From assembly GCA_046729915.1 (NCBI GenBank), contig JBKPHO010000476.1, positions 1 to 42,655 of the forward strand: a DNA stretch of 42,655 nt. Reading direction: 5' to 3'. Below are positions 7,593 to 27,684 of the stretch, piece by piece. The stretch comes from Actinomycetota bacterium. GTDB taxonomy: Bacteria > Actinomycetota > Thermoleophilia > Gaiellales > Gaiellaceae. Every line of letters starts with the position of its first letter. Position 1 is the stretch's first letter. The notes under the pieces were generated by a model. The model did no database searches, was not told the origin of the DNA, and saw only the letters and a list, made by a program, of their open reading frames with translations. A program made the translations under genes and the position numbers.

Positions 7593-8633
7593 TCACTCGA
7601 CGACGACGCCGGCGCCCTCCTCGACGCGGCCGACCCGCCGGATGAACAGCCTGCGCGCCTCGAACTCGGCCTCCAGCGCTGGGGCGCGCTCCGCCGGGAT
7701 CGAGACGAGCAGGCCGCCGGCCGTCTGCGGGTCGTAGCCGAGCGCCACGAATGTCTCGGGCACCGGGGGGCCGAGCTCCACGTGAGGACCGGCGAAGTCG
7801 CGGTTGCGCGGGTCGCCGCTCGTGCGCACGCCGTGCCGGGCGATATCGAGCGCCCCGTCGATGGCGGGGAAGCGGGACGACTCGAGCCGGAGCCGGACGC
7901 CGCTTCGCTCGGCGACCTCGTGGGCGTGGCCGAAGAGGCCGAAGCCGGTCACGTCGGTGACGGCGCTCGGCTCGAAGCTGCGCAGCACGCCGGCCGCGGC
8001 GTCGTTCAGCGTCCGCATCCAGCGGATCGCCCGCTCGAGCTGCTGCGAGCCGGCCCGGCCCAGTTTGTAGCCGGTCATGATCAGGCCGGTGCCGAGGGGC
8101 TTGGTCAGGAAGATCACGTCCCCGGGCCGCGCGCCGTTCTTCGGCCAGATGCCCTGCGGGTGCACCGTCCCGACGACCGCGAGGCCATATTTCGGCTCGG
8201 CATCGCGGATGGTGTGGCCGCCCGCGAGCAGCCCGCCCGCTGCACGCACCTGCGCGTCTGCAGCCGCGAAGATCTGGGCCAGCATCTCCATCGGCAGCTC
8301 CTCGGGGAAGGCAGCGATCGAGAGCGCGAGCAACGGCGTGCCGCCCATCGCGAAGACGTCGTTGAGCGCGTTCGTCGCAGCGATCGCGCCGTAGTCGGCG
8401 GGGTCGTCGACGACCGGTGGGAAGAAGTCGAGCGTGAAGATCAGCGCCCGTTCCTCGTCGAGCCGGTAGACCGCGGCGTCGTCGGCAGGCGCGAGGCCGA
8501 CGAGCAGGTCTTCCGCCTCGGCGGGCACGAAGCCCGCGAGCAACTGCTCGAGCCGTGCCGCCGAGTACTTCGCGGCGCAACCGCCGCAGGACGCCAGATC
8601 GGTGAGCTTGACGGTGCCGGTGTTTAGATCCAC
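7593..8633 (-). CDS. selD: Selenide, water dikinase (selenophosphate synthetase), Cys-type
   Basis: 'LTDLASCGGCAAKYS' is the glycine-rich N-terminal loop, with Cys three residues before the catalytic Lys. PurM/AIR-synthase-like fold motifs ('DDAAVY', 'TLDFFPP', 'ATNALNDVFAMGG', 'GGHTI') are present. There is no in-frame TGA. Confidence 0.9.
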   Translation of the reverse strand: MDLNTGTVKLTDLASCGGCAAKYSAARLEQLLAGFVPAEAEDLLVGLAPADDAAVYRLDEERALIFTLDFFPPVVDDPADYGAIAATNALNDVFAMGGTPLLALSIAAFPEELPMEMLAQIFAAADAQVRAAGGLLAGGHTIRDAEPKYGLAVVGTVHPQGIWPKNGARPGDVIFLTKPLGTGLIMTGYKLGRAGSQQLERAIRWMRTLNDAAAGVLRSFEPSAVTDVTGFGLFGHAHEVAERSGVRLRLESSRFPAIDGALDIARHGVRTSGDPRNRDFAGPHVELGPPVPETFVALGYDPQTAGGLLVSIPAERAPALEAEFEARRLFIRRVGRVEEGAGVVVE

Positions 8634-8825: not shown

Positions 8826-9713
8826 TCAGAGCAGCTTTGCGCGCACGGCAGCACCGAGCTCGCTCGCCGAGACCGAGCCTTCGAACTTCGCCTTGATCCG
8901 GCCGTCGCGCCCGACGAGGAACACCCACGGCTCGGTGCGAAGGCCCCACTGGCGCATCCAGCGGTTGTAGCCGCGCTGCGGGTTGTTGTCGCGGAAGACC
9001 TCGACGTGGATGAACCGGACGCCCCGCGGCGCGAAGCGCTTCCGGACCGCCTCCATCACGTCCACGACCGGCCCGCACGTGCGGCTGGTGCAGAACTTCG
9101 GCGTCGCGAACGTGACCACGAACGGCTTGTGCGCGGCCAACGAGCCCGCGATCGAATAGCGCAGCAGCGGCAGGTCGGGCGGCCGGCTCGTGGTGATGCG
9201 CGCCGCCGCCGCCGTGGCGAGCGTCGGCGTCGCCGAGCGTGGAGCCCTGGCGCCGACGGCCCGGCTACTGGCGTGCGCGGTCACGTCCAGCACGCCGACC
9301 GCCTGGATCCTGGCGCCTGCCGGCTGCGCGACGAGCCAGTAGCGGCCGGGCCGCCGAAGTTTGAGCTGCGCGACGAAGATGCGGGTCACGCCGCCGAAGG
9401 CCGCCTCGGAGCGACCGGGAATCCCGATCGGCTCGAGGCGCGCGGTCGCGCGAGCGAACGGGGTGCCCGCCCGGCTCTTGGCGACCCAGACGGAAGCCGT
9501 GGGCCGGTACACCGGCCTCGCGTCGTTTCTGATCACGAGGAACGGGTACCGAACGTCGCCGGCCACGAACTCGGAAGCACCCGCCGTGACGGCGACGTCC
9601 GGCCCGGGCCGCTTCAGGATCGATTCCAGCGTGGCGCCCCTTGACGTGGCGGACCCGCCGCAACCGGCGCAGAGAGCCGATGCCGCGAGGAGAACGGCGA
9701 AAACCCGGCCCAC
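8826..9713 (-). CDS. Lipoprotein with a C-terminal thioredoxin-fold (redoxin/SCO-like) domain
   Basis: Lipobox 'LAASALCAGCGG'. C-terminal 'FVVTFATPKFCTSRTCGPVVD...WVFLVGRDGRIKAKFEG' resembles thiol-disulfide oxidoreductase folds. Confidence 0.7.
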   Translation of the reverse strand: MGRVFAVLLAASALCAGCGGSATSRGATLESILKRPGPDVAVTAGASEFVAGDVRYPFLVIRNDARPVYRPTASVWVAKSRAGTPFARATARLEPIGIPGRSEAAFGGVTRIFVAQLKLRRPGRYWLVAQPAGARIQAVGVLDVTAHASSRAVGARAPRSATPTLATAAAARITTSRPPDLPLLRYSIAGSLAAHKPFVVTFATPKFCTSRTCGPVVDVMEAVRKRFAPRGVRFIHVEVFRDNNPQRGYNRWMRQWGLRTEPWVFLVGRDGRIKAKFEGSVSASELGAAVRAKLL

Positions 9714-9804
9714 GGGCCGAGTCTAGCTACGCCTACCTCCCTGGCTCGGGCGAAGCCGGGAACGAGAACCGCAGAGCAGGAGCGCGGCTCGACTCATGCC
9801 GACT

Positions 9805-9831
9805 GCGTTCGGAGCCCCCCGCTCCGAACGC
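9805..9831 (-). terminator. 11-bp perfect hairpin 13 nt downstream of the 41-codon ORF
   Basis: GCGTTCGGAGC-ccccc-GCTCCGAACGC. There is no U-tract, as is common for high-GC actinobacterial terminators. A mutually exclusive alternative stem CCGAAC/GTTCGG (9824..9842) also exists. Confidence 0.6.
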
Positions 9832-9843
9832 GCCTGGTTCGGT

Positions 9844-9969
9844 CTAGTGCCCGTCGAACCAGCTGCCCGGATGGCCGAGGAGGCATCCGAGGCCGTGCGC
9901 GGCGCCCTGGAGGGAGAAGGCCAGCAGGGAGAGGGAGACCGTCAGCGAGATCAGGCGTGCCTTGTTCAT
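9844..9969 (-). CDS. Unannotated 41-aa small ORF: secreted pro-peptide candidate MNKARLISLTVSLSLLAFSLQGAAHGLGCLLGHPGSWFDGH
   Basis: Hand translation of the minus strand. SD GAAGGAGGTG lies 4 nt before the ATG. About 38 of 40 codons end in G/C, matching genome coding bias. N-terminus is signal-like (n-region MNKAR, a 15-aa hydrophobic core, then an AxA-like GAAHG). It starts 19 nt after the regulator stop and is followed by a hairpin. It falls below the 60-aa cutoff of the supplied track. Confidence 0.7.
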   Translation of the reverse strand: MNKARLISLTVSLSLLAFSLQGAAHGLGCLLGHPGSWFDGH

Positions 9970-9988: not shown

Positions 9989-11338
9989 TTAGAAGCGGAC
10001 ATCCTGTAGGGCTTCGGCAGCCTTTCGATACAGGCGTGCCGCAGTAGCGTCCTCGCCGCGGCGGGCGGCGAGATCGCCTTGTGCCATCCACGCGGCGGCG
10101 CGATGGCTGATCGATTCCAGCTGCTCTGCGCTTGCCTCGGCGGTGCGCAGCATCTGCTGCGCCTCGTCGAGGCGACCCTGCTCCATCAAGGCGCGGCCCA
10201 GCACGAGCTGGGTCGGCGCGATGTCGAGCAGGAAGTCTTCGCGGCCCTCGAGGAGCTCGAGCGCGTGACGCGCCTCCTCTTCTGCCGACTCCACCTGGCC
10301 GGTCGCCAGGTGCACGTGTGCGAGAGACGAGACCACGTTGGCGGCCTCGGCGTCGCTGCCCTTGTCGAGCAGGACGCGGTAGGCGTTCTTCAGGTCCTCG
10401 ACCGCCCGCTCGGGCTTGCCGAGCTGGAAGTTGAGGCCACCCAGGTTGTTCAAAAGCCGGCCGACGTTTCGCTCGTCGTTCAGCTGCTCGTAGTAGGCCT
10501 TGGCGCGCTCGGCGTAACTGCGCGCGAGAACCCAGTGGCCCATTCGCTCGGAGACGAGCGAGGCCTGGAAGTAGACATTGGCCATCGTCCGGTGGTCGTC
10601 GAGCGCCTGCGCCAGCTCGAGCGCCCGCTCGACGTCCTCCCGCGCGGCCTCGAAGTCGCGCTGGCGGCGGTAGCAGCGCGAGCGCCAGCCGAGGATCTCG
10701 GAGCGCAGCAGGTCGCATGGAAGACCCGAGCCCTCCGCGAGCTTCAGCGCCTCGCTGAAGAGCGCGACAGCCGAGGCGATGCTGGAGAGGTGGTAACGGC
10801 AGACGCCCATGCGGAAGAGCACCTGCGCGCGGTCGACGTCCGAGAAGCCGGGGCCCTCGGTGATCGTGCGGCAGCGCTCCAGGAGCCGTAGGGCCGGCCG
10901 GAGCTCGCCGCGCTCCATCCGCGCCCACGCTTCCGTCTGGACCGCGCGGGCCTCGAGCTCGACCGCGCCGGTGGCCATCACGGCCGTGTGCGCGTTCTCA
11001 AGCTCCTCGATGGCTTCGTCGTACTGGTGCGCGTTGGCAAGGGCCTCCGCCCGGGCGAGCATGGCCTCGACTCTGCTGCGCTCGTCGGCGGAGACGCCGC
11101 GCTCGAGGAAGGCGGCGTCGACGCCGAGCTTGGCCGCCAGCCACTCGATCGTCTCGCGCGTGGGCCTGGTCTTCCCACGCTCGATCTGGCTGACGTACTC
11201 CTTCGAGAAGCGGTCGCCCGCGAGATCAGTCTGCGTCAGGCCTGCGGCGACGCGCAGCTGCCGGACCCGCTCGCCGAGGCGGGCGGATCCGAGGCGGCTG
11301 GTGGTGCGGGACTGGGCTGTTAGGGAGTCTTTGGGCAC
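9989..11338 (-). CDS. XRE-family HTH transcriptional regulator with a large TPR domain (PlcR/NprR-like architecture)
   Basis: N-terminal 'LGERVRQLRVAAGLTQTDLAGDRFSKEYVSQIERGKTRPTRETIEWLAAKLGV' is an HTH_XRE. The remaining ~370 aa consist of repeated 34-residue A/L/Y-rich helical pairs (e.g. 'ANVYFQASLVSERMGHWVLARSYAERAKAYYEQL', 'GRLLNNLGGLNFQLGKPERAVEDLKNAYRVL'). Confidence 0.85.
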   Translation of the reverse strand: MPKDSLTAQSRTTSRLGSARLGERVRQLRVAAGLTQTDLAGDRFSKEYVSQIERGKTRPTRETIEWLAAKLGVDAAFLERGVSADERSRVEAMLARAEALANAHQYDEAIEELENAHTAVMATGAVELEARAVQTEAWARMERGELRPALRLLERCRTITEGPGFSDVDRAQVLFRMGVCRYHLSSIASAVALFSEALKLAEGSGLPCDLLRSEILGWRSRCYRRQRDFEAAREDVERALELAQALDDHRTMANVYFQASLVSERMGHWVLARSYAERAKAYYEQLNDERNVGRLLNNLGGLNFQLGKPERAVEDLKNAYRVLLDKGSDAEAANVVSSLAHVHLATGQVESAEEEARHALELLEGREDFLLDIAPTQLVLGRALMEQGRLDEAQQMLRTAEASAEQLESISHRAAAWMAQGDLAARRGEDATAARLYRKAAEALQDVRF

Positions 11339-11351
11339 GAAACGCTCGCGG

Positions 11352-11377
11352 CGAAGTCAAACGCATACTTGACTTCG
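11352..11377. promoter_or_regulatory. Perfect 9-N8-9 palindrome CGAAGTCAA-acgcatac-TTGACTTCG, a candidate operator upstream of the XRE-TPR gene
   Basis: Read directly from the sequence. It lies 14-39 nt upstream of the regulator GTG (11338). The ACTTGAC half-site recurs at 11458..11464 and 11471..11477. Confidence 0.6.
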
Positions 11378-11472
11378 GCGCAAGTGCGGTTGGGCTATAT
11401 CCCCCAAAAAGGGCATGTCCGAGCCGCAAACAGGGTGAACTGGCCGGTCTGAAAATCACTTGACCGAGTTAC

Positions 11473-11501
11473 TTGACTCCCGCTTTGGCCACGTCTATAT
11501 T
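11473..11501 (+). promoter_or_regulatory. Near-consensus sigma-70-type promoter (TTGACT-17 nt-TATATT)
   Basis: -35 TTGACT at 11473..11478, an exact 17-nt spacer, and -10 TATATT at 11496..11501. This stands out in a very GC-rich genome. Expected TSS is near 11508. Confidence 0.65.
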
Positions 11502-11507
11502 GCGACC

Positions 11508-11684
11508 ACCTTGCACCCAGCCGGACGCCAGGCTTACGGGATGCAAGGGGCGCGCCAGAGACGGCGACACATGGCCCGGAGGTAGTGGCTGGGCCGCAGA
11601 GCCAAGGCCTCCGGGTCGTCGCCTCTCAGGAAAGGCCCGCAAAAATCACAAAGCCCCCCGAGCCGCAGCGGGGGGCTTTTCTCT
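11508..11684 (+). ncRNA. Candidate ~175-nt structured small RNA of unknown class
   Basis: Bounded by the promoter above and an intrinsic terminator. Internal helices: CCTTGCA/TGCAAGG; GGCGAC...CCCGGAGG...CCTCCGGG..GTCGCC with an inner GGCT/AGCC; then an A-rich single-stranded stretch. No plausible ORF and no downstream plus-strand gene. Confidence 0.5.
11651..11684. terminator. Rho-independent terminator, potentially bidirectional
   Basis: AAGCCCCCCG-agccgcag-CGGGGGGCTT followed by TTCTCT on the plus strand. It is preceded by GCAAAAATCACAAAG, which gives a T-rich tail on the minus strand. A second hairpin CCGGGGGAA-tccctgg-TTCCCCCGG follows at 11687..11711. Confidence 0.7.
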
Positions 11685-11865
11685 GTCCGGGGGAATCCCT
11701 GGTTCCCCCGGATGACCCCTCCTTGCCAGCGGCCCTGCAGCCCTTGCGTCCAGGAGCCGGCGCTTGGATCCGAGACTTCGTTCGTTCTTGTCGTTGTGTG
11801 CCTCCCGCCGAGCAAAGCTCGGCTCCGGCGGCCGGCCTGGGCGCCCCAAGTTGACGTTGGCTCTG

Positions 11866-12468
11866 CTAGGCCGGGCTGCCTGTCATCCACTCGCGGCGGG
11901 AAGCCACGACGTCATCGAACTCCGCGCCGACCAGGGTGCCGAGGCGGCGGTCGATTGTGGTGAGGAGGCCTAGGGAGATGAAGATCCACGCTTCGGCGTC
12001 TGGGTCTCGCTCCGGCAGGATGCCGCCGCTGTCCTGGGCGCGGCGGATGACCCCGGCGACGAAGTCGTGGACCTCGCGCACCTGTTCGCGCAGGCCCCGG
12101 CGGATCTCCGGGTCGTCCGCCGCCTCGCTCAGCGCCTGAATCCAGAGGTCGACCATGATCACGCGGTCGGCGGCACGCGCCTGGAGGTACGTCTTGCCGA
12201 GCGTCCCGAGCGAGGCGGCCGGGTCGGGCTCGCGCTCGAGCGCCTCCTCCCAGAGCCCGCGGAGCCGCTCCCAGGACGCCGCGAGGCAAGCGAGGTAGAG
12301 CTCGCGCTTGGAGGAGAAATGGCGGTAGAGCACCGGCTCGGTGACGCCCGTCTCGCGGGCGATCTGCGCGGTCGTCGAGCCGTGGTAGCTGCTCTTCGAG
12401 AAGACGCGGCTGGCGGTCTCGACCACCGCGGCCCGCCGTTCGGGACCCGACAGCCTGGTACTACTCAT
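11866..12468 (-). CDS. TetR/AcrR family transcriptional regulator
   Basis: 'AAVVETASRVFSKSSYHGSTTAQIARETGVTEPVLYRHFSSKRELY' is a TetR_N HTH. The ATG overlaps the MFS gene stop (ATGA). The 627-aa track ORF is an artefactual extension. Confidence 0.85.
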   Translation of the reverse strand: MSSTRLSGPERRAAVVETASRVFSKSSYHGSTTAQIARETGVTEPVLYRHFSSKRELYLACLAASWERLRGLWEEALEREPDPAASLGTLGKTYLQARAADRVIMVDLWIQALSEAADDPEIRRGLREQVREVHDFVAGVIRRAQDSGGILPERDPDAEAWIFISLGLLTTIDRRLGTLVGAEFDDVVASRREWMTGSPA

Positions 12469-13904
12469 GCGCCGACCTCCACCGGCTGGCCGGAGTCGGC
12501 GTGCCGGTACCTGCGCACGAGCACCGCGGCCGCGATCGCGGCGCCGAAGCAGATCGCCGCGCTCACGCGCATGCCGAAGGTGAGCCCGTCCACGAACGCC
12601 TGCGGCGGCGAAGCGCCCCCGCGGGCGGAGGCCGCGGCCCGCTCGGTGATGATCGCGCCGGTGACTGCGATGCCGAGCGCGACGCCGACCTGGCGGAAGG
12701 TGTTCAGCACGCCCGAGGCGACTCCGGCCTTTTCGACCGGCGCAGCGCCCATCGCCGCGGCCGACATGGGCGTCATCACGAACGACATCCCGAGCCCGCC
12801 GAGCACGAACGCCGGGAGCATGTGCCAGAAGGTGGAGTGCAGCGTCACGGTGGAGAGCAGGAGGCAGCAGACCGCGACCACACTCATTCCCCCGGCCATC
12901 AGCCAGCGCGAGCCGACGCGGTCGGAGAGCTTGCCGGCGATCGGGGCGAAGACGACGATCATCAGCGTCCACGGCAGCAGTGCGGCGCCGGCCTGGATCG
13001 GTGACCAGCCACGGAACGTCTGCATGTAGATCGGGAAGAACACGAAGATCCCGAACATCGCGAGCGTGACGAGGATCGCGACGAGGTTGGCCCCGGCGAA
13101 CGTCCCGCTGCGGAACAGCGAGAGGTCGAGCATCGGCAGCCGCTGGTGCAGCTCGAGCAGGATGAACGTCACCAGGGCGACCGAGCCGATCGCGAACAGG
13201 CCGAGGATGCGCGCCGACGTCCAGCCGTACTGGTTCGCCTCGATCAGCGCGTAGACGATGGCCAGCAGCCCGATCCCCGACGAGAGCAGGCCTGGCAGGT
13301 CGAGCCGCTGTTCGTGGGAGGTATCCCTCGACTCGGGAACCACCAGCAGTGCCACGACGACGCCGATCGCGCCGATCGGGACGTTGACGTAGAAGATCCA
13401 GTTCCAGGAGACGTGCTCGGTGATGATCCCGCCGAGCAGCGGCCCGATCGCGAGCGCCATCGCGGAGACCCCGGCCCAGATCCCGATCGCCATGCCGCGC
13501 TCGCGGACCGCGAAGGTTGCGGAGATGATCGAGAGCGTCGCGGGCATCATCAGCGCCGCGCCGACTCCCTGGACGGCGCGGGCGGCGATCAGCTCGGTGC
13601 CGGTCGAGGAGAGGCCGCAGAAGAGCGAGGAGGCGGTGAAGACGATCAGCCCGATCACGAAGATGAGCCGGCGGCCGAGGAGATCGCCGAGCTTGCCGCC
13701 GGTGAGCAGCAGGGAGGCGAAGGTGAGCGCGTAGGCGGCAACCGTCCACTCGAGCTCGGCGCGGCTGATGCTGAGCTCACGCTGGATTGCCGGCAGCGCG
13801 ACGTTCACCACCGTGTTGTCGAGCATGATCATGAAGAGCGCGAAACACAGCGCTCCCAGCGTCCACCACTTCCTGTTCTGCTCCGCGAAGATCCTCGCCC
13901 GCAC
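12465..13904 (-). CDS. MFS transporter, DHA2/EmrB-like (14-TMS drug:H+ antiporter family)
   Basis: 'WWTLGALCFALFMIMLDNTVVNVALPAIQRELS...' and 'LLLTGGKLGDLLGRRLIF' are characteristic of DHA2-family motifs. 479 aa and highly hydrophobic. Confidence 0.85.
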   Translation of the reverse strand: MRARIFAEQNRKWWTLGALCFALFMIMLDNTVVNVALPAIQRELSISRAELEWTVAAYALTFASLLLTGGKLGDLLGRRLIFVIGLIVFTASSLFCGLSSTGTELIAARAVQGVGAALMMPATLSIISATFAVRERGMAIGIWAGVSAMALAIGPLLGGIITEHVSWNWIFYVNVPIGAIGVVVALLVVPESRDTSHEQRLDLPGLLSSGIGLLAIVYALIEANQYGWTSARILGLFAIGSVALVTFILLELHQRLPMLDLSLFRSGTFAGANLVAILVTLAMFGIFVFFPIYMQTFRGWSPIQAGAALLPWTLMIVVFAPIAGKLSDRVGSRWLMAGGMSVVAVCCLLLSTVTLHSTFWHMLPAFVLGGLGMSFVMTPMSAAAMGAAPVEKAGVASGVLNTFRQVGVALGIAVTGAIITERAAASARGGASPPQAFVDGLTFGMRVSAAICFGAAIAAAVLVRRYRHADSGQPVEVGA

Positions 13905-13991: not shown

Positions 13992-15938
13992 ATGGAGCCG
14001 ATCTGGACGCCTTCGGAGCGGGTGCGTGAGCACTCGAACGCGTTGCGGCTCGCACGGAAGCTCGGCTTCGAGGACTACGCCTCGCTCGTGCGCTTCTCCA
14101 CGGAGGAGCCGGAGCGGTTCTGGCCGGCGGCCATCGAGGACATGGGCCTCGAGTTCTCGCAGCCTTGGCACGCAGTCCTGGACGAGTCGCGCGGGCCCGA
14201 GTGGGCGACGTGGTTCGTCGGCGGACGGCTCAACCTCGCGTGGAACTGCGTGCACCGCTGGGCGCACGGGCCGCGTGCGGACACAGCCGCCGCGCTCTGG
14301 CAGGGCGAGGACGGGGTGCGGCGGTCGCTGTCGTACCGCGAGCTGTCGACGGAGGTGACGCGGCTGGCCGAGGCGCTCGCCGCGCTAGGCGTCGAATCGG
14401 GCGACCGAGTGGCGATCTTTCTGCCGATGTCGCCGGAGGTCGCGATCGCCTCGCACGCCTGCGCGCACCTCGGCGCCATCCAGGTGCCGGTGTTCTCGGG
14501 CTTCGCGGCGCCCGCGATTGCCGCTCGGCTGCAGCATTCGGAGGCGCGGGTCGTGATCACGGCGGACGGCTCGCTGCGGCGCGGGGGCGAGGTGCCGATG
14601 AAGGAGCTCGTCGACGAGGCGCTCGCGGAGTCGCCTTCGGTCGAGCACGTCGTCGTGTGGCGGCGGCTGGGCCGCGACGTCCCGATGCGGCCGGGCCGCG
14701 ATCTCTTCTGGGACGAGGCCGTGGCCGACTCGCCGGGGGAGCTCGAGCCGCTCGAGGTCGATTCCGAGCACCCGTACCTGCTGACCTACACCTCTGGCAC
14801 GACGGGGCCGCCGAAGGGCGTGCTGCACGTACAGGCCGGCTTCCTCGTCTCGATCGCCCGCGAGGTCTGCTACCAGGCGGACACCCGGCCCGACGACGTC
14901 ATCCACTTCGTAACCGACATGGGCTGGATCATGGGCCCGTGGGAGGTCGTGGGCGGGATGGCGCTCGGTTGCACAGTCGTGTTCGCCGAGGGCGCGCCCG
15001 ACTGGCCGGCCGCCGACCGGCTGTGGGGGCTCGTGGAGAGCGAGCGCGTCTCAATTCTCGGGCTCTCGCCGACGCTGGTGCGCGCGCTGATACCGCACGG
15101 CGCGGAGCTGGTCGAGCGGCACGATCTCTCGACGTTGCGGGTGCTCGTGACGACCGGCGAGCCGTGGAACCCGGAGCCGTACCGCTGGCTGTTCGAGCAC
15201 GTCGGCGGCCGGCGCTGCCCGATCATCAACTGCTCGGGCGGCACCGAGGTCGGAGCCTGCTTCCTCTCGCCGACCGTTGCGGCACCGATCAAGTCGTGCT
15301 CGCTGGGCGGGCCTGCGCTCGGGATGGCGATGGACGTCGTCGACGCGGAGGGGCGCTCGGTGCGCGGCGAGGTCGGGGAGCTCGTCTGCCGGAAGCCGTT
15401 TCCCGGGATGACGCGGGGGTTCTGGAAGGACCCGGAGCGCTACCTGGACACGTACTGGCGCCGGCTGCCGGGGGTCTGGGTGCACGGCGACTGGGCCTCC
15501 GTCGACGCGGACGGCTACTGGTTCCTCCACGGGCGGTCCGACGACACGCTCAACATCGCGGGCAAGCGGCTCGGACCGGCGGAGCTGGAGTCGGCGGTCG
15601 TGGCACATCCGATGGTCGCCGAGGCGGCGGCGGTCGGCGTGCCTCACGAGGTGAAGGGCGAGGTCGCGTGGGTCTTCTGCGCGCTCGTGCCGGCAGCGGA
15701 GCCGAGCGAGCAACTGGCGGCGGAGCTGCGGGCGCTCGCGGCCGGTGCGCTCGGCAAGGCGTTCGCGCCCGAGCGGGTGCTGTTCGTGTCGGCGCTGCCG
15801 AAGACGCGCAGCGCGAAGATCGTGAGGCGCGCCGTCCGGGCCAAGGCGCTCGGGGCCGATCCGGGCGACCTCACGTCGCTGGAGAACCCGGAGACGCTGG
15901 ACGAGATCGCCGAGGCGGCCGGAGCAACCACGCCCTAG
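13992..15938 (+). CDS. AMP-forming acyl-CoA synthetase of the acetyl-CoA synthetase (ACS) family; substrate unknown
   Basis: ACS-type N-terminal domain ('FWPAAIEDMGLEFSQPW', 'WFVGGRLNLAWNCVHRW'). AMP-binding core 'YTSGTTGPPKGV'. C-terminal 'LPKTRSAKIVRR'. Confidence 0.85.
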   Translation: MEPIWTPSERVREHSNALRLARKLGFEDYASLVRFSTEEPERFWPAAIEDMGLEFSQPWHAVLDESRGPEWATWFVGGRLNLAWNCVHRWAHGPRADTAAALWQGEDGVRRSLSYRELSTEVTRLAEALAALGVESGDRVAIFLPMSPEVAIASHACAHLGAIQVPVFSGFAAPAIAARLQHSEARVVITADGSLRRGGEVPMKELVDEALAESPSVEHVVVWRRLGRDVPMRPGRDLFWDEAVADSPGELEPLEVDSEHPYLLTYTSGTTGPPKGVLHVQAGFLVSIAREVCYQADTRPDDVIHFVTDMGWIMGPWEVVGGMALGCTVVFAEGAPDWPAADRLWGLVESERVSILGLSPTLVRALIPHGAELVERHDLSTLRVLVTTGEPWNPEPYRWLFEHVGGRRCPIINCSGGTEVGACFLSPTVAAPIKSCSLGGPALGMAMDVVDAEGRSVRGEVGELVCRKPFPGMTRGFWKDPERYLDTYWRRLPGVWVHGDWASVDADGYWFLHGRSDDTLNIAGKRLGPAELESAVVAHPMVAEAAAVGVPHEVKGEVAWVFCALVPAAEPSEQLAAELRALAAGALGKAFAPERVLFVSALPKTRSAKIVRRAVRAKALGADPGDLTSLENPETLDEIAEAAGATTP

Positions 15939-25773: not shown

Positions 25774-25849
25774 GCGTACATGACGCGCAGGGGCGCGCGT
25801 GTCTTCCCTGCCTTCGCTTCGGCGGAGCCGTCTGGTATCAACCGGCGGC

Positions 25850-26818
25850 GTGAGGCTGCTCGTTCTGGGCGGGACGAAGTTCCTCGGGCGGGCGGCCGTC
25901 GGGGAGGCGCTCGCGCGCGGGCATGAGGTGACGCTGTTCAACCGCGCCGTGACGAACCCGGAGCTCTTCCCCGAGGCCGAGAGGATCCGCGGCGACCGCA
26001 CGGTCGGCCTCGCCGAGCTGCGTGGCCGTGAATGGGACGTGGTGCTCGACCCGTCGGGTTTCGTGCCTGGGGTAGTCGGGGCCTCGACCGAGCTACTGGC
26101 AGGCGCCGCCGGGCACTACCTGTTCATCTCGAGCATCTCGGTCTACGCGAGCCTGGCCGCCGTCAACCACGAGGACAGCCCGCTGGCTCAGCTCGGCGAC
26201 ATGCCCGCAGACCGGATGCTCGAGGACTACTCGAACTACGGGCCGCTGAAGGCACTCTGCGAGCAGGCAGTCGCCGAGGCCTTCGGCGAGCGTCACGCGA
26301 TCGTGCGGCCGGGCCTGATCGTCGGAGCGCACGACCCGACCGGCCGCTTCACGTACTGGCCGCACCGCATCGCGCGCGCCGGCGAGGTGCTCGCGCCGGC
26401 GCCGCCGGAGCGCAAGGTCCAGTTCGTCGACGTCCGCGACCTCGGCTCCTGGCTGGTCGACCTCCTGGAACGGCGTGCAACCGGCGCCTACAACGCCACA
26501 CACCCGGGCCGCACGTGGGGCGAGGTCCTGGAGACATGCAGGGAGGTCGCCGGCAGCGACGCGACCTTCACTTGGGTTTCCGACAGCTTCCTGGTCGAGC
26601 GCGAGGTCGGCGAGTGGATGGAGCTGCCGATGTGGGTCCAAAGCCCGGACGAGGCCGGGATCCACGAGGCCGACGTCTCACGCGCGGTCGCGGCCGGGCT
26701 GACCTTCCGGCCGCTGGAGGAGACGGTGCGCGACACCCTCGAGCTCGCGCCAACGACCGACGACGCCGGGCTCAGCCCGGAGCGCGAGGCGGAGCTGCTC
26801 GCTGCGGCTCACGGGTAA
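25850..26818 (+). CDS. NAD-dependent epimerase/dehydratase family (extended SDR) protein
   Basis: 'VRLLVLGGTKFLGRAAVGEALARGHEVTLFNR' is a Rossmann GxxGxxG at the N-terminus. The GTG at 25850 is preferred over the track start at 25799. Confidence 0.75.
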   Translation: MRLLVLGGTKFLGRAAVGEALARGHEVTLFNRAVTNPELFPEAERIRGDRTVGLAELRGREWDVVLDPSGFVPGVVGASTELLAGAAGHYLFISSISVYASLAAVNHEDSPLAQLGDMPADRMLEDYSNYGPLKALCEQAVAEAFGERHAIVRPGLIVGAHDPTGRFTYWPHRIARAGEVLAPAPPERKVQFVDVRDLGSWLVDLLERRATGAYNATHPGRTWGEVLETCREVAGSDATFTWVSDSFLVEREVGEWMELPMWVQSPDEAGIHEADVSRAVAAGLTFRPLEETVRDTLELAPTTDDAGLSPEREAELLAAAHG

Positions 26819-27684
26819 GCCGCAGCGGCGCGCTCCCAACGCGGGTCGTCGCGGTGGATCCGGTCGGGGTCGATCCCGCGGGCCTCGGCGAGCTCCAGCG
26901 TCAGCAGCTGGAACCGGACGATGTCGACGACCGGGTGCACCGTGGGCACGAGCGTCGTCTCGCAGCCGAGCTCGCGCAGCGCGGCGACCGCGCCTGCCGC
27001 CCGCTCCGCCGCGCGGCCCTCGCCCTCGAGCACGAACGCACGCACCGACTCGTCGACCGCCGCCAGGTGCCCGTGGAGGAGCTGCTCGGTGTGGTGCGCC
27101 TCCGCGGCCACGTGGACGCCTTCGCGCAGCTTCAGCACCGCCTCCTGCGCGGTCGGCCAGTCGCGCCCCGCGCCTGCCACCAGAAATCGCTCGTGCGAGC
27201 TCACCGGCTCGCGCCGCTCCAGGGCCTCCTCGACCGCCTCCGCGAGGCCGCTTACGTCGTCGCCGTGCAGCGCCGCCAGCGCCGCAACGGCGCTCGTGTA
27301 GCTCGCTGTGTGGCACCAGCTCTGCTCGATCTCCGGCGCCGCGACGACCACCTCGTCCGCGAGCTCTCCCAGCGGGCTGTCCGCCTTGCCGGTGATCAGC
27401 CACACCGGCCCGTCGAAGGCGCGCGCGGCCTCGAGGCTCAGGAGCGTGCCGCCCTCGTGGCTGATGACGACGAGCGCGTCGGCCTCCCTCGGCGCGAGCA
27501 CGAGCTCCAGAGCCTGCTCGGCCCAGCCGTCGGTTTGCGCCGCGTGAAACGAGGTACCGCAGCCGGTGTGAAGCACCCGTCCCGCCGGCAGACGCCGGTC
27601 GGTGGGAACCGCCCTCAGCCACTCCGGCTGCGCGAAGATCGCGCGCCTCGTCTCCTCCCCGGCCACGCCCGAAGCATCTCGCAT
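26809..27684 (-). CDS. SIS (sugar isomerase) domain protein, GlmS-C/AgaS/FrlB-like
   Basis: 'IFAQPEWL...RVLHTGCGTSFHAA...ALVVISHEGGT' and a second SIS-like half 'RFLVAGAGRDWPTAQEAVLKLRE'. Start is at ATG 27684, or at 27693. Confidence 0.7.
   Translation of the reverse strand: MRDASGVAGEETRRAIFAQPEWLRAVPTDRRLPAGRVLHTGCGTSFHAAQTDGWAEQALELVLAPREADALVVISHEGGTLLSLEAARAFDGPVWLITGKADSPLGELADEVVVAAPEIEQSWCHTASYTSAVAALAALHGDDVSGLAEAVEEALERREPVSSHERFLVAGAGRDWPTAQEAVLKLREGVHVAAEAHHTEQLLHGHLAAVDESVRAFVLEGEGRAAERAAGAVAALRELGCETTLVPTVHPVVDIVRFQLLTLELAEARGIDPDRIHRDDPRWERAAAAYP

What the first reader, a model, noticed from the sequence alone, without database searches (positions are those of the whole stretch)
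11473..11684. Orphan near-consensus promoter driving a ~175-nt structured RNA that ends at a canonical terminator
The promoter TTGACT-17 nt-TATATT is exceptional in this GC-rich DNA. It is followed by a sequence that can form several strong helices, notably GGCGAC/CCCGGAGG...CCTCCGGG/GTCGCC. Next comes an A-rich single-stranded stretch, and then a 10-bp GC stem with a T tail.

No plus-strand gene follows; the next genes are on the minus strand. The internal ORFs look non-coding. I could not match the sequence by eye to SRP RNA, 6S RNA, tmRNA, RNase P RNA or a common riboswitch. It may be a trans-acting sRNA, possibly the output of the adjacent regulator.
Basis: partly seen in the sequence, partly recalled or inferred. 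Interest (0 to 1): 0.65.

Follow-up and report, generated by a model that had tools for sequence, protein, structure and literature searches.

The report
New abundant small RNA beside peptide-sensor genes
This is a real, very highly expressed, about 177-base structured non-coding RNA of uncultured soil actinobacteria (Gaiellales) that matches no catalogued RNA family, and it always sits back-to-back with a gene pair that looks like a peptide quorum-sensing receptor and its secreted signal, a kind of system so far described only in Firmicutes.

Summary
TTGACT-17-TATATT (11473-11501) is the only sigma-70-like site in the 42.6-kb window. The RNA it would drive (about 11508-11684, + strand) folds far better than shuffles.

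Eight soil, sediment and rhizosphere metatranscriptomes hold a discrete, abundant transcript there. Its flanks are empty in most of them.

The locus is present in all 79 Gaiellales genomes where that region is available. 33 of 44 base pairs show compensatory changes. There is no conserved ORF and no Rfam match.

The RNA has three covariation-supported hairpins. The central hairpin and the terminator hairpin display the same loop, RGCCGCAG. Across lineages this loop module occurs in 1 to 3 copies.

The RNA is always divergent from an HTH+TPR regulator, about 170 nt away. This held for 20 of 20 RNA-first metagenome hits.

Directly downstream of the regulator lies an unannounced small ORF with a strong ribosome-binding site. 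It has a signal-like N-terminus and a conserved, sometimes tandemly repeated, C-terminal x-Phi-Phi-D-G-x motif. This is the RRNPP receptor-propeptide layout.

Best reading (inferred): the RNA is the regulatory output of that peptide sensor and acts in trans through its repeated loops. Its target and its regulation are untested.

The parts
11452..11472 (+). Conserved block just upstream of the -35 element (AAAATCACTTGACCGAGTTAC). It holds an A-tract and a second ACTTGAC copy 13 nt upstream of the -35.
   Evidence: Nearly invariant in 73 loci. It is also kept in the divergent L070/L074 variant. ACTTGAC-N6-ACTTGAC is unique in the window.
11473..11478 (+). -35 hexamer TTGACT.
   Evidence: ACTTGAC is invariant in 74 aligned sequences.
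11496..11501 (+). -10 hexamer TATATT (family consensus TATAGT). The 17-nt spacer is free in sequence but fixed in length.
11508..11684 (+). The sRNA transcript, about 177 nt. The 5' end is inferred from promoter geometry, and the 3' end from the U-tract.
   Evidence: The covariance model matches 11508-11684 at 197 bits. Metatranscriptome contigs cover about 11510-11645 at word depths up to 2271, with adapter junctions at 11516-11522 and at 11633-11645. Variant contigs continue through the terminator hairpin.
11509..11548 (+). 5' hairpin P1 (CCUUGCA/UGCAAGG plus an inner helix). Its conserved 8-nt loop GGACGCCA lies at 11523-11530.
   Evidence: In helices 1 and 2, 8 of 10 pairs have compensatory changes and 97% of cells are paired. 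The loop is at least 90% conserved.
11549..11558 (+). Conserved linker GGCGCGCCAG (with the preceding GG it reads GGGGCGCGCCAG). It is either single-stranded or the 5' strand of a weak basal helix.
   Evidence: At least 90% conserved. The proposed partner pairs are about 90% paired but show almost no covariation (helices 3 and 4).
11563..11623 (+). Long central hairpin: P2 GGCGAC/GUCGCC, P3 CCCGGAGG/CCUCCGGG, P4 GGCU/AGCC. It is capped by the invariant 9-nt loop GGGCCGCAG (11591-11599).
   Evidence: In helices 5-7, 15 of 20 pairs have compensatory changes and 98-100% of cells are paired. The loop is invariant in 59-74 sequences.
11624..11649 (+). Variable A-rich linker. It is the site of lineage-specific insertions, including an extra RGCCGCAG hairpin in L070/L074.
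11650..11684 (+). Terminator hairpin with an 11-bp stem, the conserved 8-nt loop AGCCGCAG (11661-11668), and the U-tract UUUUCUCU.
   Evidence: In helix 8, 9 of 10 pairs have compensatory changes while the loop stays constant. The A-run before the stem and the T-run after it make it bidirectional in form.
11339..11451 (.). Shared divergent control region with three conserved blocks. B1 is at 11352-11386 (inverted repeat GAAGTCAA-N8-TTGACTTC plus GCGCAAGTG). B2 is at 11399-11416 (ATCCCCCAAAAAGGGCAT). B3 is at 11434-11441 (GGTGAACT).
   Evidence: TTSAC/GTSAA half-sites sit at fixed positions -118, -105, -38 and -13 relative to the -35 element.
9989..11338 (-). HTH(XRE)+TPR regulator, 449 aa. It is the obligate divergent neighbour of the sRNA and is receptor-like.
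   Evidence: Pfam finds HTH_31/HTH_3 plus TPR repeats. The AlphaFold2 model has pLDDT 89.9 and shows an HTH plus about 9 TPR-like helix pairs. Foldseek finds the LGN TPR domain, PlcR-PapR and Rap-Phr.
9844..9969 (-). Small ORF of 41 aa, 20 nt downstream of the regulator's stop codon: MNKARLISLTVSLSLLAFSLQGAAHGLGCLLGHPGSWFDGH. It is preceded by GAAGGAGGTGACG and is propeptide-like.
   Evidence: A counterpart with a strong ribosome-binding site was found in 76 of 79 loci. All 77 peptides kept (76 loci plus the window) have N-terminal K/R and a hydrophobic segment. 75 of 77 have a C-terminal x-Phi-Phi-D-G-x motif, and 12 have two or more copies of it.

Best explanation
The region encodes a stand-alone, abundant, structured small RNA of about 177 nt. 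It belongs to a family not in Rfam and is found in Gaiellales (class Thermoleophilia, phylum Actinomycetota).

Shown:
- It is transcribed from a conserved near-consensus sigma-A-type promoter and ends at an intrinsic terminator.
- It folds into three covariation-supported hairpins.
- The central hairpin and the terminator hairpin present the same loop, RGCCGCAG. The 5' hairpin presents GGACGCCA.
- The RGCCGCAG hairpin behaves as a module, present in 1, 2 or 3 copies in different lineages.
- The gene is always back-to-back with an HTH+TPR regulator. That regulator is followed by a small, signal-peptide-like ORF with a conserved C-terminal x-Phi-Phi-D-G-x motif.

Inferred:
- The regulator and the small ORF form an RRNPP-type receptor-propeptide pair.
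- The regulator binds the conserved TTGAC-containing repeats in the shared 170-nt intergenic region and so controls the sRNA promoter, and probably its own.
- The sRNA is the effector arm. It acts in trans through its repeated loops, either by kissing or base-pairing with CUGCGGCY sites in target RNAs or by titrating an RNA-binding protein.
- In layout and logic it resembles RNAIII at the agr locus and aimX beside aimR-aimP.
For: A real gene on the + strand:
- The promoter is unique in the window.
- The -35 and -10 elements and the spacer length are invariant while the spacer sequence is free.
- Sense covariance-model scores are 61-211 bits, against at most 34 bits antisense.
- There are 173 G.U cells against 20 A.C cells in the paired positions.

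Expression:
- In 8 metatranscriptomes, contigs cover 11510-11645 at word depths up to 574, 233, 423 and 2271.
- The flanking intergenic DNA is empty in most of these runs.
- Adapter junctions recur at the same ends.

Structure:
- 97.6% of cells are paired, and 33 of 44 pairs have changes on both sides.
- 0 of 500 shuffles reach the observed values, and slid controls give 36-58% paired.

Non-coding and not catalogued:
- No conserved ORF.
- No Rfam match at gathering score, and nothing relevant at E<=10.

Loop module:
- The loops are invariant while the stems covary.
- L070 and L074 carry three RGCCGCAG hairpins.
- Eight of the 73 aligned sequences lack a second RGCCGCAG.

Linkage:
- The RNA is found in 79 of 79 protein-ascertained loci that include the region.
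- The HTH+TPR gene is found divergently, 167-292 nt away, in 20 of 20 RNA-ascertained metagenome loci with enough flank.

Cassette:
-.
- Four of the five published RRNPP criteria are met (PMC10075063).
- That paper also notes that DNA-binding RRNPP receptors tend to regulate adjacent genes.
- The intergenic repeats are described.
Against: - No regulation, binding or target was tested.
- The promoter is near-consensus, so it should be strong without an activator. Control, if any, would more likely be by repression, or there may be none.
- RGCCGCAG is not an anti-Shine-Dalgarno motif.
- No conserved complementary site was found near the starts of the six neighbouring genes or in the receptor-propeptide operon.
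- No other hairpin-displayed RGCCGCAG exists in the window.
- The whole block ACS-MFS-TetR-RNA-regulator-orf295-SelD is largely syntenic in the family, so adjacency could partly reflect inheritance.
- Secretion of the peptide rests on simple heuristics, not on SignalP or experiment.
- The receptor matches known RRNPP proteins only by architecture and fold, not by family profile.
- One run (X32) shows the opposite adapter arrangement to the four runs with the other arrangement, and the library chemistries are not known to me.
Confidence: 0.45

Rival explanations
1. The RNA is a constitutive, housekeeping-type abundant sRNA. For example, it could be a sponge that titrates an RNA-binding protein through its repeated RGCCGCAG loops. 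Its adjacency to the HTH+TPR gene would then be inherited synteny rather than a regulatory link.
For: - The conserved promoter is near-consensus and needs no activator.
- Abundance is very high in many unrelated soil and sediment samples.
- The wider gene block is syntenic.
- No complementary target sites are seen locally.
- Copy-number variation of a loop motif is typical of sponge RNAs such as CsrB/RsmZ (established knowledge).
Against: - Adjacency held in 20 of 20 RNA-first hits and 79 of 79 protein-first loci, down to about 59% receptor identity. Meanwhile the downstream neighbour varies: TetR is absent or other genes are inserted in about 17 loci.
- The shared intergenic region carries several conserved blocks beyond the core promoter.
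- No candidate RNA-binding protein is known. CsrA, Hfq and ProQ are not typical of Actinomycetota (established knowledge).
Confidence: 0.27
2. The RNA is the lineage's abundant RNA-polymerase-binding RNA. That would make it a functional analogue, or a very diverged homologue, of 6S, Ms1 or CoRP.
For: - It is a highly abundant structured RNA with a strong sigma-A-type promoter.
- PMC11077062 proposes that each species has one abundant RNAP-associated RNA and that unknown types exist.
- Ms1 homologues are not recognisable by sequence across orders (PMC9130861).
- From my own memory, not tested here: acs lies a few genes from Ms1 in Mycobacterium and Streptomyces, and it lies two genes from this RNA.
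Against: - There is no Rfam 6S or Ms1 match even at E<=10.
- At 177 nt it is shorter than the 230-300 nt of Ms1.
- The defining HAD-IB hydrolase neighbour is absent.
- Covariation supports separate local hairpins with small internal loops, not a rod with a large central bubble closed by 5'-3' pairing.
- A repeated loop motif is not a 6S or Ms1 feature.
Confidence: 0.1
3. The element acts in cis. It could be a riboswitch or leader whose read-through makes antisense RNA against the convergent TetR/MFS genes, or merely a bidirectional terminator or insulator between convergent units.
For: - The terminator is bidirectional in form.
- TetR and MFS are convergent in most loci.
Against: - The downstream gene varies or TetR is missing in about 17 loci while the RNA is unchanged.
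- Transcript coverage stops at the terminator, with essentially none beyond it.
- The terminator stem covaries freely with no covarying anti-terminator partner.
- The terminator loop is conserved, which a plain terminator does not need.
- There is no match to any riboswitch model.
Confidence: 0.05
4. It encodes a small protein or peptide, for example the signalling peptide itself, as with shp genes divergent from rgg.
For: ORFs of 41-89 codons overlap the region. RRNPP peptides can be divergently encoded (established knowledge).
Against: - No start codon, frame, length or stop is conserved.
- Indels are not in multiples of three.
- There is no ribosome-binding site.
- Substitutions are compensatory in helices.
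- A convincing propeptide ORF lies elsewhere, at 9844-9969.
Confidence: 0.01

Closest known systems
RNAIII of the staphylococcal agr quorum-sensing locus
   Same: - A regulatory RNA transcribed divergently from the operon that encodes the peptide-signalling machinery.
- Several hairpins carry the same short loop motif, including the terminator hairpin.
- The RNA is the effector of the system (established knowledge).
   Different: - agr uses a membrane histidine kinase and a cyclic peptide, not a cytoplasmic HTH+TPR receptor.
- RNAIII is 514 nt, also encodes delta-haemolysin, and its loops are C-rich anti-Shine-Dalgarno seeds.
- There is no sequence or structural homology.
- Control of this sRNA by its neighbour is not shown.
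Arbitrium aimR-aimP-aimX, and RRNPP systems in general (PlcR-PapR, NprR-NprX, PrgX-PrgQ, Rgg-SHP)
   Same: - An HTH+TPR receptor of 250-500 aa lies directly next to a small propeptide gene with an N-terminal export signal and a C-terminal mature peptide.
- Tandemly repeated mature units occur in some members (PMC11343458).
- The regulated target lies next to the cassette, and in arbitrium that target is a short transcript (PMC10075063).
   Different: - Those systems are described only in Bacillota and their phages and plasmids. This one is chromosomal in Thermoleophilia.
- There is no match to the family profiles of known receptors, only generic TPR and HTH matches.
- aimX lies downstream of aimP rather than divergent.
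- Peptide secretion, re-import and binding are untested.
6C RNA (Rfam RF01066) of Actinomycetota
   Same: A small, abundant actinobacterial sRNA whose hairpin loops carry a repeated conserved motif thought to pair with targets without Hfq (established knowledge).
   Different: 6C loops are runs of at least six C. Here the loops are RGCCGCAG and GGACGCCA. There is no Rfam match at E<=10, and the size and architecture differ.
CsrB/RsmY/RsmZ protein-sponge RNAs
   Same: One short motif is displayed repeatedly in hairpin loops, the copy number varies between lineages, and abundance is high.
   Different: Those RNAs display GGA motifs for CsrA/RsmA, which is not expected in this phylum. Here there are only 1-3 copies, and no partner protein is known.
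Ms1, 6S and CoRP RNAs that bind RNA polymerase
   Same: An abundant, structured, promoter-proximal stand-alone RNA in an actinobacterium with no recognised 6S RNA (PMC9130861, PMC11077062).
   Different: It differs in length, neighbourhood and architecture, and it matches none of the models.

Membership tests
Any Rfam 15 family (SRP, 6S, tmRNA, RNase P, Ms1, 6C, riboswitches and others) | Covariance-model match at or above the family's gathering score. | tested here: not met
   There were 0 matches in the whole window at gathering score. At E<=10 on 11300-11900 only six chance-level hits of 12-18 bits appeared, to unrelated families. ARAGORN found no tRNA or tmRNA.
Independent sRNA gene | Its own promoter, conserved as a promoter. 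| tested here: met
   It scores 10 of 12 to the consensus and is unique in the window. The hexamers and the 17-nt spacing are conserved while the spacer sequence is free, in 74 sequences.
Independent sRNA gene | A discrete transcript of the predicted extent. | tested here: met
   Contigs from 8 metatranscriptomes are confined to about 11510-11645, with variants continuing through the terminator. Adapter junctions recur. The exact 5' and 3' ends were not mapped at nucleotide resolution.
Independent sRNA gene | Secondary structure conserved through compensatory change. | tested here: met
   33 of 44 pairs have changes on both sides, 97.6% of cells are paired, and 0 of 500 shuffles reach the observed values.
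Independent sRNA gene | Not protein-coding. | tested here: met
   No conserved ORF, start codon or frame.
Intrinsic terminator | A G+C-rich stem-loop followed by a U-tract. | tested here: met
   An 11-bp stem at 11650-11679 is followed by UUUUCUCU. The stem covaries. A subgroup (L045, L049, L054, L057, L061, L063, L071) has a different 3' hairpin without a clear U-tract.
Ms1 RNA | Flanked by a HAD-IB hydrolase ('inhibition of morphological differentiation') gene (PMC9130861, Tables 1-3). | tested here: not met
   The neighbours are an HTH+TPR regulator and TetR. No HAD hydrolase is among the genes annotated in the window.
Ms1 RNA | Length of about 230-300 nt with a 6S-like fold. | tested here: not met
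   It is 177 nt long and has three local hairpins supported by covariation.
Ms1 RNA | Binds the RNA polymerase core. | not testable with these tools
   This needs RIP or pull-down experiments.
6S RNA | A rod with a large central bubble, closed by pairing of the 5' and 3' ends. | tested here: not met
   The 5' end and the 3' end each form their own covarying hairpin. There is no RF00013 match.
6C RNA | Two hairpin loops, each with at least six C. | tested here: not met
   The loops are GGACGCCA, GGGCCGCAG and AGCCGCAG. There is no RF01066 match.
RRNPP-type quorum-sensing cassette (for the neighbouring genes; criteria from PMC10075063) | Receptor of 250-500 aa with TPR repeats. | tested here: met
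   It is 449 aa. Pfam TPR_12, TPR_2 and other TPR families match at E of 1e-26 and weaker. The AlphaFold2 model shows a TPR superhelix.
RRNPP-type quorum-sensing cassette | A small propeptide gene (10-100 aa) directly adjacent to the receptor. | tested here: met
   A 41-aa ORF lies 20 nt downstream on the same strand with a strong ribosome-binding site. It is present in 76 of 79 loci.
RRNPP-type quorum-sensing cassette | The propeptide carries a Sec-type export signal. | tested here: inconclusive
   All 77 peptides have N-terminal K/R and a hydrophobic 12-mer. SignalP was not available.
RRNPP-type quorum-sensing cassette | Sequence or profile homology to a known RRNPP receptor family. | tested here: not met
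   Only generic HTH and TPR families match. In the PDB sequence search, ComR matches at the HTH only. PlcR and Rap match by fold at E of 1e-7, behind LGN-type TPR domains.
RRNPP-type quorum-sensing cassette | The mature peptide is secreted, re-imported and bound by the receptor. | not testable with these tools
   This needs experiment.

The most novel reading that the evidence does not exclude
The sRNA would be the effector arm of the first RRNPP-type peptide quorum-sensing system outside Bacillota. The system would be chromosomally fixed across the abundant, almost uncultured soil order Gaiellales. The HTH+TPR receptor would sense x-Phi-Phi-D-G-x peptides and switch the sRNA. The sRNA's repeated RGCCGCAG loops would then reprogramme gene expression by binding target RNAs or a so far unknown RNA-binding protein.
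Probability: 0.3. Interest if true: 0.85.

Novelty: new variant of a known kind. Interest (0 to 1): 0.72.

Why it matters
Gaiellales are among the most abundant actinobacteria in soils, yet they are almost uncultured and nothing is known about how they regulate genes.

This RNA is one of their most abundant non-ribosomal transcripts in several metatranscriptomes, so it is probably central to their physiology in situ. It also gives a ready marker for their activity.

Its fixed pairing with a receptor-propeptide cassette matters for a textbook generalisation. The generalisation holds that genetically encoded peptide signalling through cytoplasmic TPR receptors is a Firmicutes trait, while actinobacteria signal with small molecules.

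The locus is compact: promoter region, receptor, peptide and RNA fit within 1.9 kb. That makes the question directly testable in a heterologous host with synthetic peptides.

The repeated RGCCGCAG loop also points to an unknown RNA-RNA or RNA-protein recognition code in a phylum that lacks Hfq, ProQ and CsrA.

Tried and rejected
1. Ms1 by synteny.
- From memory, I suspected the SCO3558/scr3559 and Rv3661/MTS2823 neighbourhood because acs is nearby.
- The papers define Ms1 by a HAD-IB hydrolase neighbour, a length of 230-300 nt and binding to the RNA polymerase core.
- The neighbours, the length and the fold here do not fit.

2. Rfam. There were no hits at gathering score, and only noise at E<=10.

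3. tRNA, tmRNA or tRNA-Sec near selD. None were found.

4. Coding potential. Rejected.

5. RNAalifold on a plain MAFFT alignment of all homologues recovered only parts of the structure because the variable stems were misaligned. This was solved by building a covariance model from the 25 closest sequences and re-aligning.

6. Pseudoknots or extra pairs. An all-against-all screen for compensatory column pairs found nothing convincing beyond the nested helices. The basal helix that involves the conserved GGCGCGCC linker is not supported by covariation.

7. Local targets.
- No conserved CUGCGGC or CUGGCGUC sites lie near the starts of XRE-TPR, TetR, MFS, ACS or SelD; orf295 carries TGCGGC in 15 of 24 loci, but at scattered positions.
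- None lie in the receptor-propeptide operon. A CTGGCG peak at +645 is explained by a conserved G-W-R coding stretch.

8. Other RGCCGCAG hairpins or other copies of the promoter-proximal repeat in the window. None were found. My search for the B1 palindrome used the wrong spacer length and is uninformative.

9. Riboswitch or antisense reading. Rejected on synteny, coverage and lack of an anti-terminator.

10. Literature. The held library has nothing on Gaiellales sRNAs or on RRNPP systems outside Bacillota.

11. Of the 80 loci listed by the metagenome pattern scan, 57 were chance matches and were discarded after covariance-model screening.
Full report
**Observation**

TTGACT (11473-11478), a 17-nt spacer and TATATT (11496-11501) form a 10-of-12 match to the sigma-70 consensus. 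In 4.5 kb around it this is the only promoter-like site, where 0.1 is expected. My own scan found no other site with at least 9 of 12 matches on either strand of the whole 71% G+C window.

The 177 nt that follow (11508-11684) fold at -99.6 kcal/mol, against -75.1 +/- 4.2 for dinucleotide shuffles (z = -5.9). The opposite strand gives z = -3.0. The fold has four parts:
- a 5' hairpin;
- an A-rich linker;
- an 11-bp G+C-rich stem followed by UUUUCUCU.

No plus-strand gene follows. TetR (about 11866-12480) and an MFS transporter (12465-13904) are convergent, and acetyl-CoA synthetase starts at 13992.

**Expression**

Sampled 31-mers of the RNA occur in many public metatranscriptomes. I laid contigs from eight RNA runs on the region. 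The runs come from soil, sediment, groundwater and rhizosphere samples in separate studies.

Contigs cover about 11510-11645 at mean word depths up to 574 (X26), 233 (X27), 423 (X33) and 2271 (X34). In most runs the promoter region, the rest of the intergenic DNA and the DNA beyond the terminator have zero depth.

Short contigs carry sequencing adapters directly at 11516-11522 on the left and at 11633-11645 on the right. This fits a small RNA whose extreme 5' end and stable 3' hairpin are poorly captured by random-primed libraries. Contigs of sequence variants continue through the terminator hairpin.

In four runs (X26, X27, X33, X34) the adapter arrangement puts read 1 on the minus strand. 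In dUTP-type libraries that means a plus-strand RNA. One run (X32) has the opposite arrangement, and I do not know the library chemistries, so this point is only supportive.

Contig depth is a rough measure. The ends are not mapped to the nucleotide.

**Organism and homologues**

The best relatives of the neighbouring regulator are from Gaiellaceae MAGs, and the DNA occurs in soil metagenomes. The lineage is Actinomycetota; Thermoleophilia; Gaiellales.

A scan of species-representative genomes with the regulator protein returned 80 loci, all Gaiellaceae, Gaiellales or unclassified Actinomycetota MAGs. Protein identity ran from 96% down to 62%.
- blastn finds the RNA region in 77 of them, at 96-65% identity, always about 135-350 nt upstream of the regulator and divergent from it.
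- A covariance model built from the 25 closest sequences finds one sense-strand hit in every locus that includes the region.
- Those hits are 73 full-length (61-211 bits), 4 cut by contig ends, and 2 divergent (L070, L074).
- Antisense scores never exceed 34 bits.

**Structure**

On the model-guided alignment of 73 sequences, 97.6% of the cells of the 44 pairs form standard pairs. 33 pairs show changes on both sides. None of 500 column shuffles reaches the observed values on any of the five measures. Sliding the 3' partners drops pairing to 36-58%.

Supported elements:
- The two-part 5' hairpin (11509-11548).
- The central hairpin: P2 GGCGAC/GUCGCC, P3 CCCGGAGG/CCUCCGGG, P4 GGCU/AGCC.
- The terminator stem.

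A proposed basal helix involving the conserved GGCGCGCC linker pairs in about 90% of cells but hardly covaries, so it is uncertain.

The paired positions hold 173 G.U cells against 20 A.C cells, which again points to the plus strand. The alignment was fitted to the model, which favours the structure somewhat. However, the same helices are visible in the unguided alignments.

**What is conserved**

In the promoter, ACTTGAC at the -35 element and TAnAGT at the -10 element are invariant. The 17-nt spacer varies freely in sequence but not in length.

In the RNA, the stems vary and the loops do not. The 5' loop is GGACGCCA, the apical loop is GGGCCGCAG, and the terminator loop is AGCCGCAG. Two different hairpins therefore display the same RGCCGCAG sequence.

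The divergent L070/L074 form keeps the promoter and the 5' hairpin but has three RGCCGCAG hairpins. Eight aligned sequences have no second RGCCGCAG; seven of them are a subgroup with a different 3' hairpin. The motif-bearing hairpin thus behaves as a module with 1-3 copies.

A conserved loop in a terminator hairpin is not needed for termination. It argues that the loops are the working parts.

**Not coding, not catalogued**

No start codon, frame, length or stop is conserved, and indels are not in threes. Rfam 15 gives no match at gathering score in the window. At E<=10 it gives only noise in the region. ARAGORN finds nothing.

**Context**

The wider block ACS-MFS-TetR-[RNA]-[regulator]-orf295-SelD is largely syntenic. 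TetR is missing in about 10 loci and other genes are inserted in about 7, while the RNA-regulator pair stays intact.

To remove the ascertainment bias, I scanned metagenome contigs for the RNA itself. 23 of the 80 pattern matches are true members by the covariance model (44-202 bits). All 20 of those with more than 200 nt of upstream flank carry the regulator gene divergently, 167-292 nt from the RNA's 5' end, down to 59% protein identity.

The regulator (9989-11338, minus strand, 449 aa) has an XRE-type HTH and TPR repeats. It models with high confidence (pLDDT 89.9) as an HTH plus a TPR superhelix. By fold it resembles peptide-binding TPR domains: LGN/Pins first, with PlcR-PapR and Rap-Phr further down the list.

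Twenty nucleotides after its stop codon lies a 41-codon ORF that I had not been told of (9844-9969). It is preceded by GAAGGAGGTGACG and encodes MNKARLISLTVSLSLLAFSLQGAAHGLGCLLGHPGSWFDGH.
- A counterpart with an AAGGAGGTGA-type ribosome-binding site exists in 76 of 79 loci.
- All 77 peptides have N-terminal K/R and a hydrophobic segment.
- 75 have a C-terminal x-Phi-Phi-D-G-x motif (SWFDGH, SMFDGG, GFFDGH, SWWDGP and others).
- In one clade the unit is repeated three to five times, for example SAFDGGSAFDGGSAFDGGSAFDGH.

This is the published signature of RRNPP receptor-propeptide pairs: a small propeptide, an export signal, a 250-500 aa TPR receptor, and direct adjacency (PMC10075063). Tandem mature units are also known in RRNPP systems (PMC11343458). 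Four of the five criteria are met. The export signal rests on heuristics only.

The receptor matches no known RRNPP family profile. I therefore call the cassette RRNPP-like, not a member. In the papers held here, RRNPP systems are described in Bacillota and their mobile elements, and actinobacterial signalling is described as small-molecule based.

**Control region**

The 170 nt between the two start points hold conserved blocks:
- An inverted repeat GAAGTCAA-N8-TTGACTTC next to the regulator's start.
- ATCCCCCAAAAGGGGCAT.
- GGTGAACT.
- AAAATCACTTGACCGAGnTACTTGAC, which overlaps the -35 element.

TTGAC-type half-sites sit at fixed positions -118 (reverse), -105, -38 (reverse) and -13. These could be operators of the HTH protein. 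That is inference.

**Mechanism**

Shown: an abundant, independently transcribed, structured non-coding RNA with repeated conserved loops, inseparable from an HTH+TPR gene and a propeptide-like ORF.

Inferred:
- The HTH+TPR protein senses the peptide and controls the sRNA promoter.
- The sRNA acts in trans through its loops, on RNAs carrying CUGCGGCY or on a protein.

The near-consensus promoter argues that any control is by repression, as with PrgX, or that the RNA is constitutive. I found no conserved complementary sites in the neighbouring genes or in the cassette mRNA. I also found no other RGCCGCAG hairpin within 42 kb. Targets, if any, lie elsewhere in the genome.

My confidence estimates:
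- About 0.95 that this is a genuine structured sRNA gene.
- About 0.5 that the neighbour regulates it.
- About 0.45 for the whole picture.

**Rivals**

- A constitutive sponge-type RNA with merely inherited synteny (0.27).
- An RNA-polymerase-binding RNA in the sense of 6S, Ms1 or CoRP (0.10). It is attractive because of the abundance and the proposal in PMC11077062, but the architecture, length and neighbourhood fail the tests.
- A cis-acting leader, antisense driver or plain terminator (0.05).
- A coding gene (0.01).

**Comparison and novelty**

In layout and logic the closest systems are agr RNAIII and arbitrium aimR-aimP-aimX. RNAIII is a divergent effector RNA with a repeated loop motif, including in its terminator hairpin. 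Among actinobacterial sRNAs the closest is 6C, which also has a repeated loop motif. This RNA is a member of none of them.

The RNA family is absent from Rfam 15 and from the literature I could search. Its pairing with an RRNPP-like cassette in Thermoleophilia is a new variant of known kinds of system.

**Limits**

- There is no cultured host and no nucleotide-resolution mapping of the ends.
- No binding or genetic data exist.
- Contig-based expression evidence is coarse.
- I could not scan whole Gaiellales genomes for 6S or Ms1, or for sRNA copies outside the cassette.

Noticed in passing
window 9844-9969 (-), with 9989-11338 (-): An unannotated 41-aa ORF with a strong ribosome-binding site lies 20 nt after the HTH+TPR gene. 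It has a signal-like N-terminus and a conserved C-terminal x-Phi-Phi-D-G-x motif, tandemly repeated in clade L026-L033. Together the two genes look like an RRNPP-type receptor-propeptide quorum-sensing pair, a type so far described only in Bacillota.
   Followed up: yes
window 11339-11451: The divergent intergenic region holds conserved blocks: the inverted repeat GAAGTCAA-N8-TTGACTTC plus GCGCAAGTG (11352-11386), ATCCCCCAAAAAGGGCAT (11399-11416), and GGTGAACT (11434-11441). TTGAC-type half-sites sit at fixed phases. These could be operators or 5'-UTR elements of the regulator mRNA. The regulator's own promoter could not be placed.
   Followed up: partly
L070:2625-2838 (-) and L074 (same region): A divergent form of the sRNA has the same promoter and 5' hairpin but three hairpins with RGCCGCAG loops. 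Other subgroups carry a 20-40-nt insertion before the terminator (L048, L050, L053, L058, L059, L060, L067). A further subgroup has a different 3' hairpin without the motif or a U-tract (L045, L049, L054, L057, L061, L063, L071).
   Followed up: partly
window 11688-11712: A perfect 9-bp palindrome, CCGGGGGAA-TCCCTGG-TTCCCCCGG, lies just 3' of the sRNA terminator. The same element (GGAAYCYCTGGTTCC core) sits at the same place in six other loci that are scattered in the family (L010, L012, L018, L022, L070, L074), and once elsewhere (L135). It is a sporadic small palindromic element of unknown role and is barely transcribed.
   Followed up: partly
window 9800-9840 (-): A strong hairpin, CGTTCGGAGC-GGGG-GCTCCGAACG, without a clear U-tract follows the propeptide ORF directly. 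It may end or punctuate the receptor-propeptide transcript.
   Followed up: no
window 8826-9713 (-): orf295 lies downstream of the cassette in most loci. It has a lipoprotein-like N-terminus (LLAASALCAGCGG) and a weak thioredoxin-like C-terminal domain, and it matches no NCBIfam model. It might belong to the same unit, for example for peptide handling, or be unrelated.
   Followed up: no
window 7593-8633 (-): A selenide, water dikinase gene (SelD, TIGR00476, E = 2e-100) lies two to three genes from the sRNA and is syntenic in many loci. No tRNA-Sec is present in the window.
   Followed up: partly
window 26802-26825: CTGCGGCT and its reverse complement AGCCGCAG form an inverted repeat 8 nt apart at the 3' end of the epimerase-like gene (25799-26818). 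It shares the 8-mer of the sRNA loops, but here in the stem, so this is probably coincidence.
   Followed up: no
window 11168-11201: In one sediment metatranscriptome (X27), contigs over the HTH-coding part of the regulator gene reach word depth 433, far above the rest of the gene. This probably reflects pile-up of many related species on the most conserved stretch.
   Followed up: no
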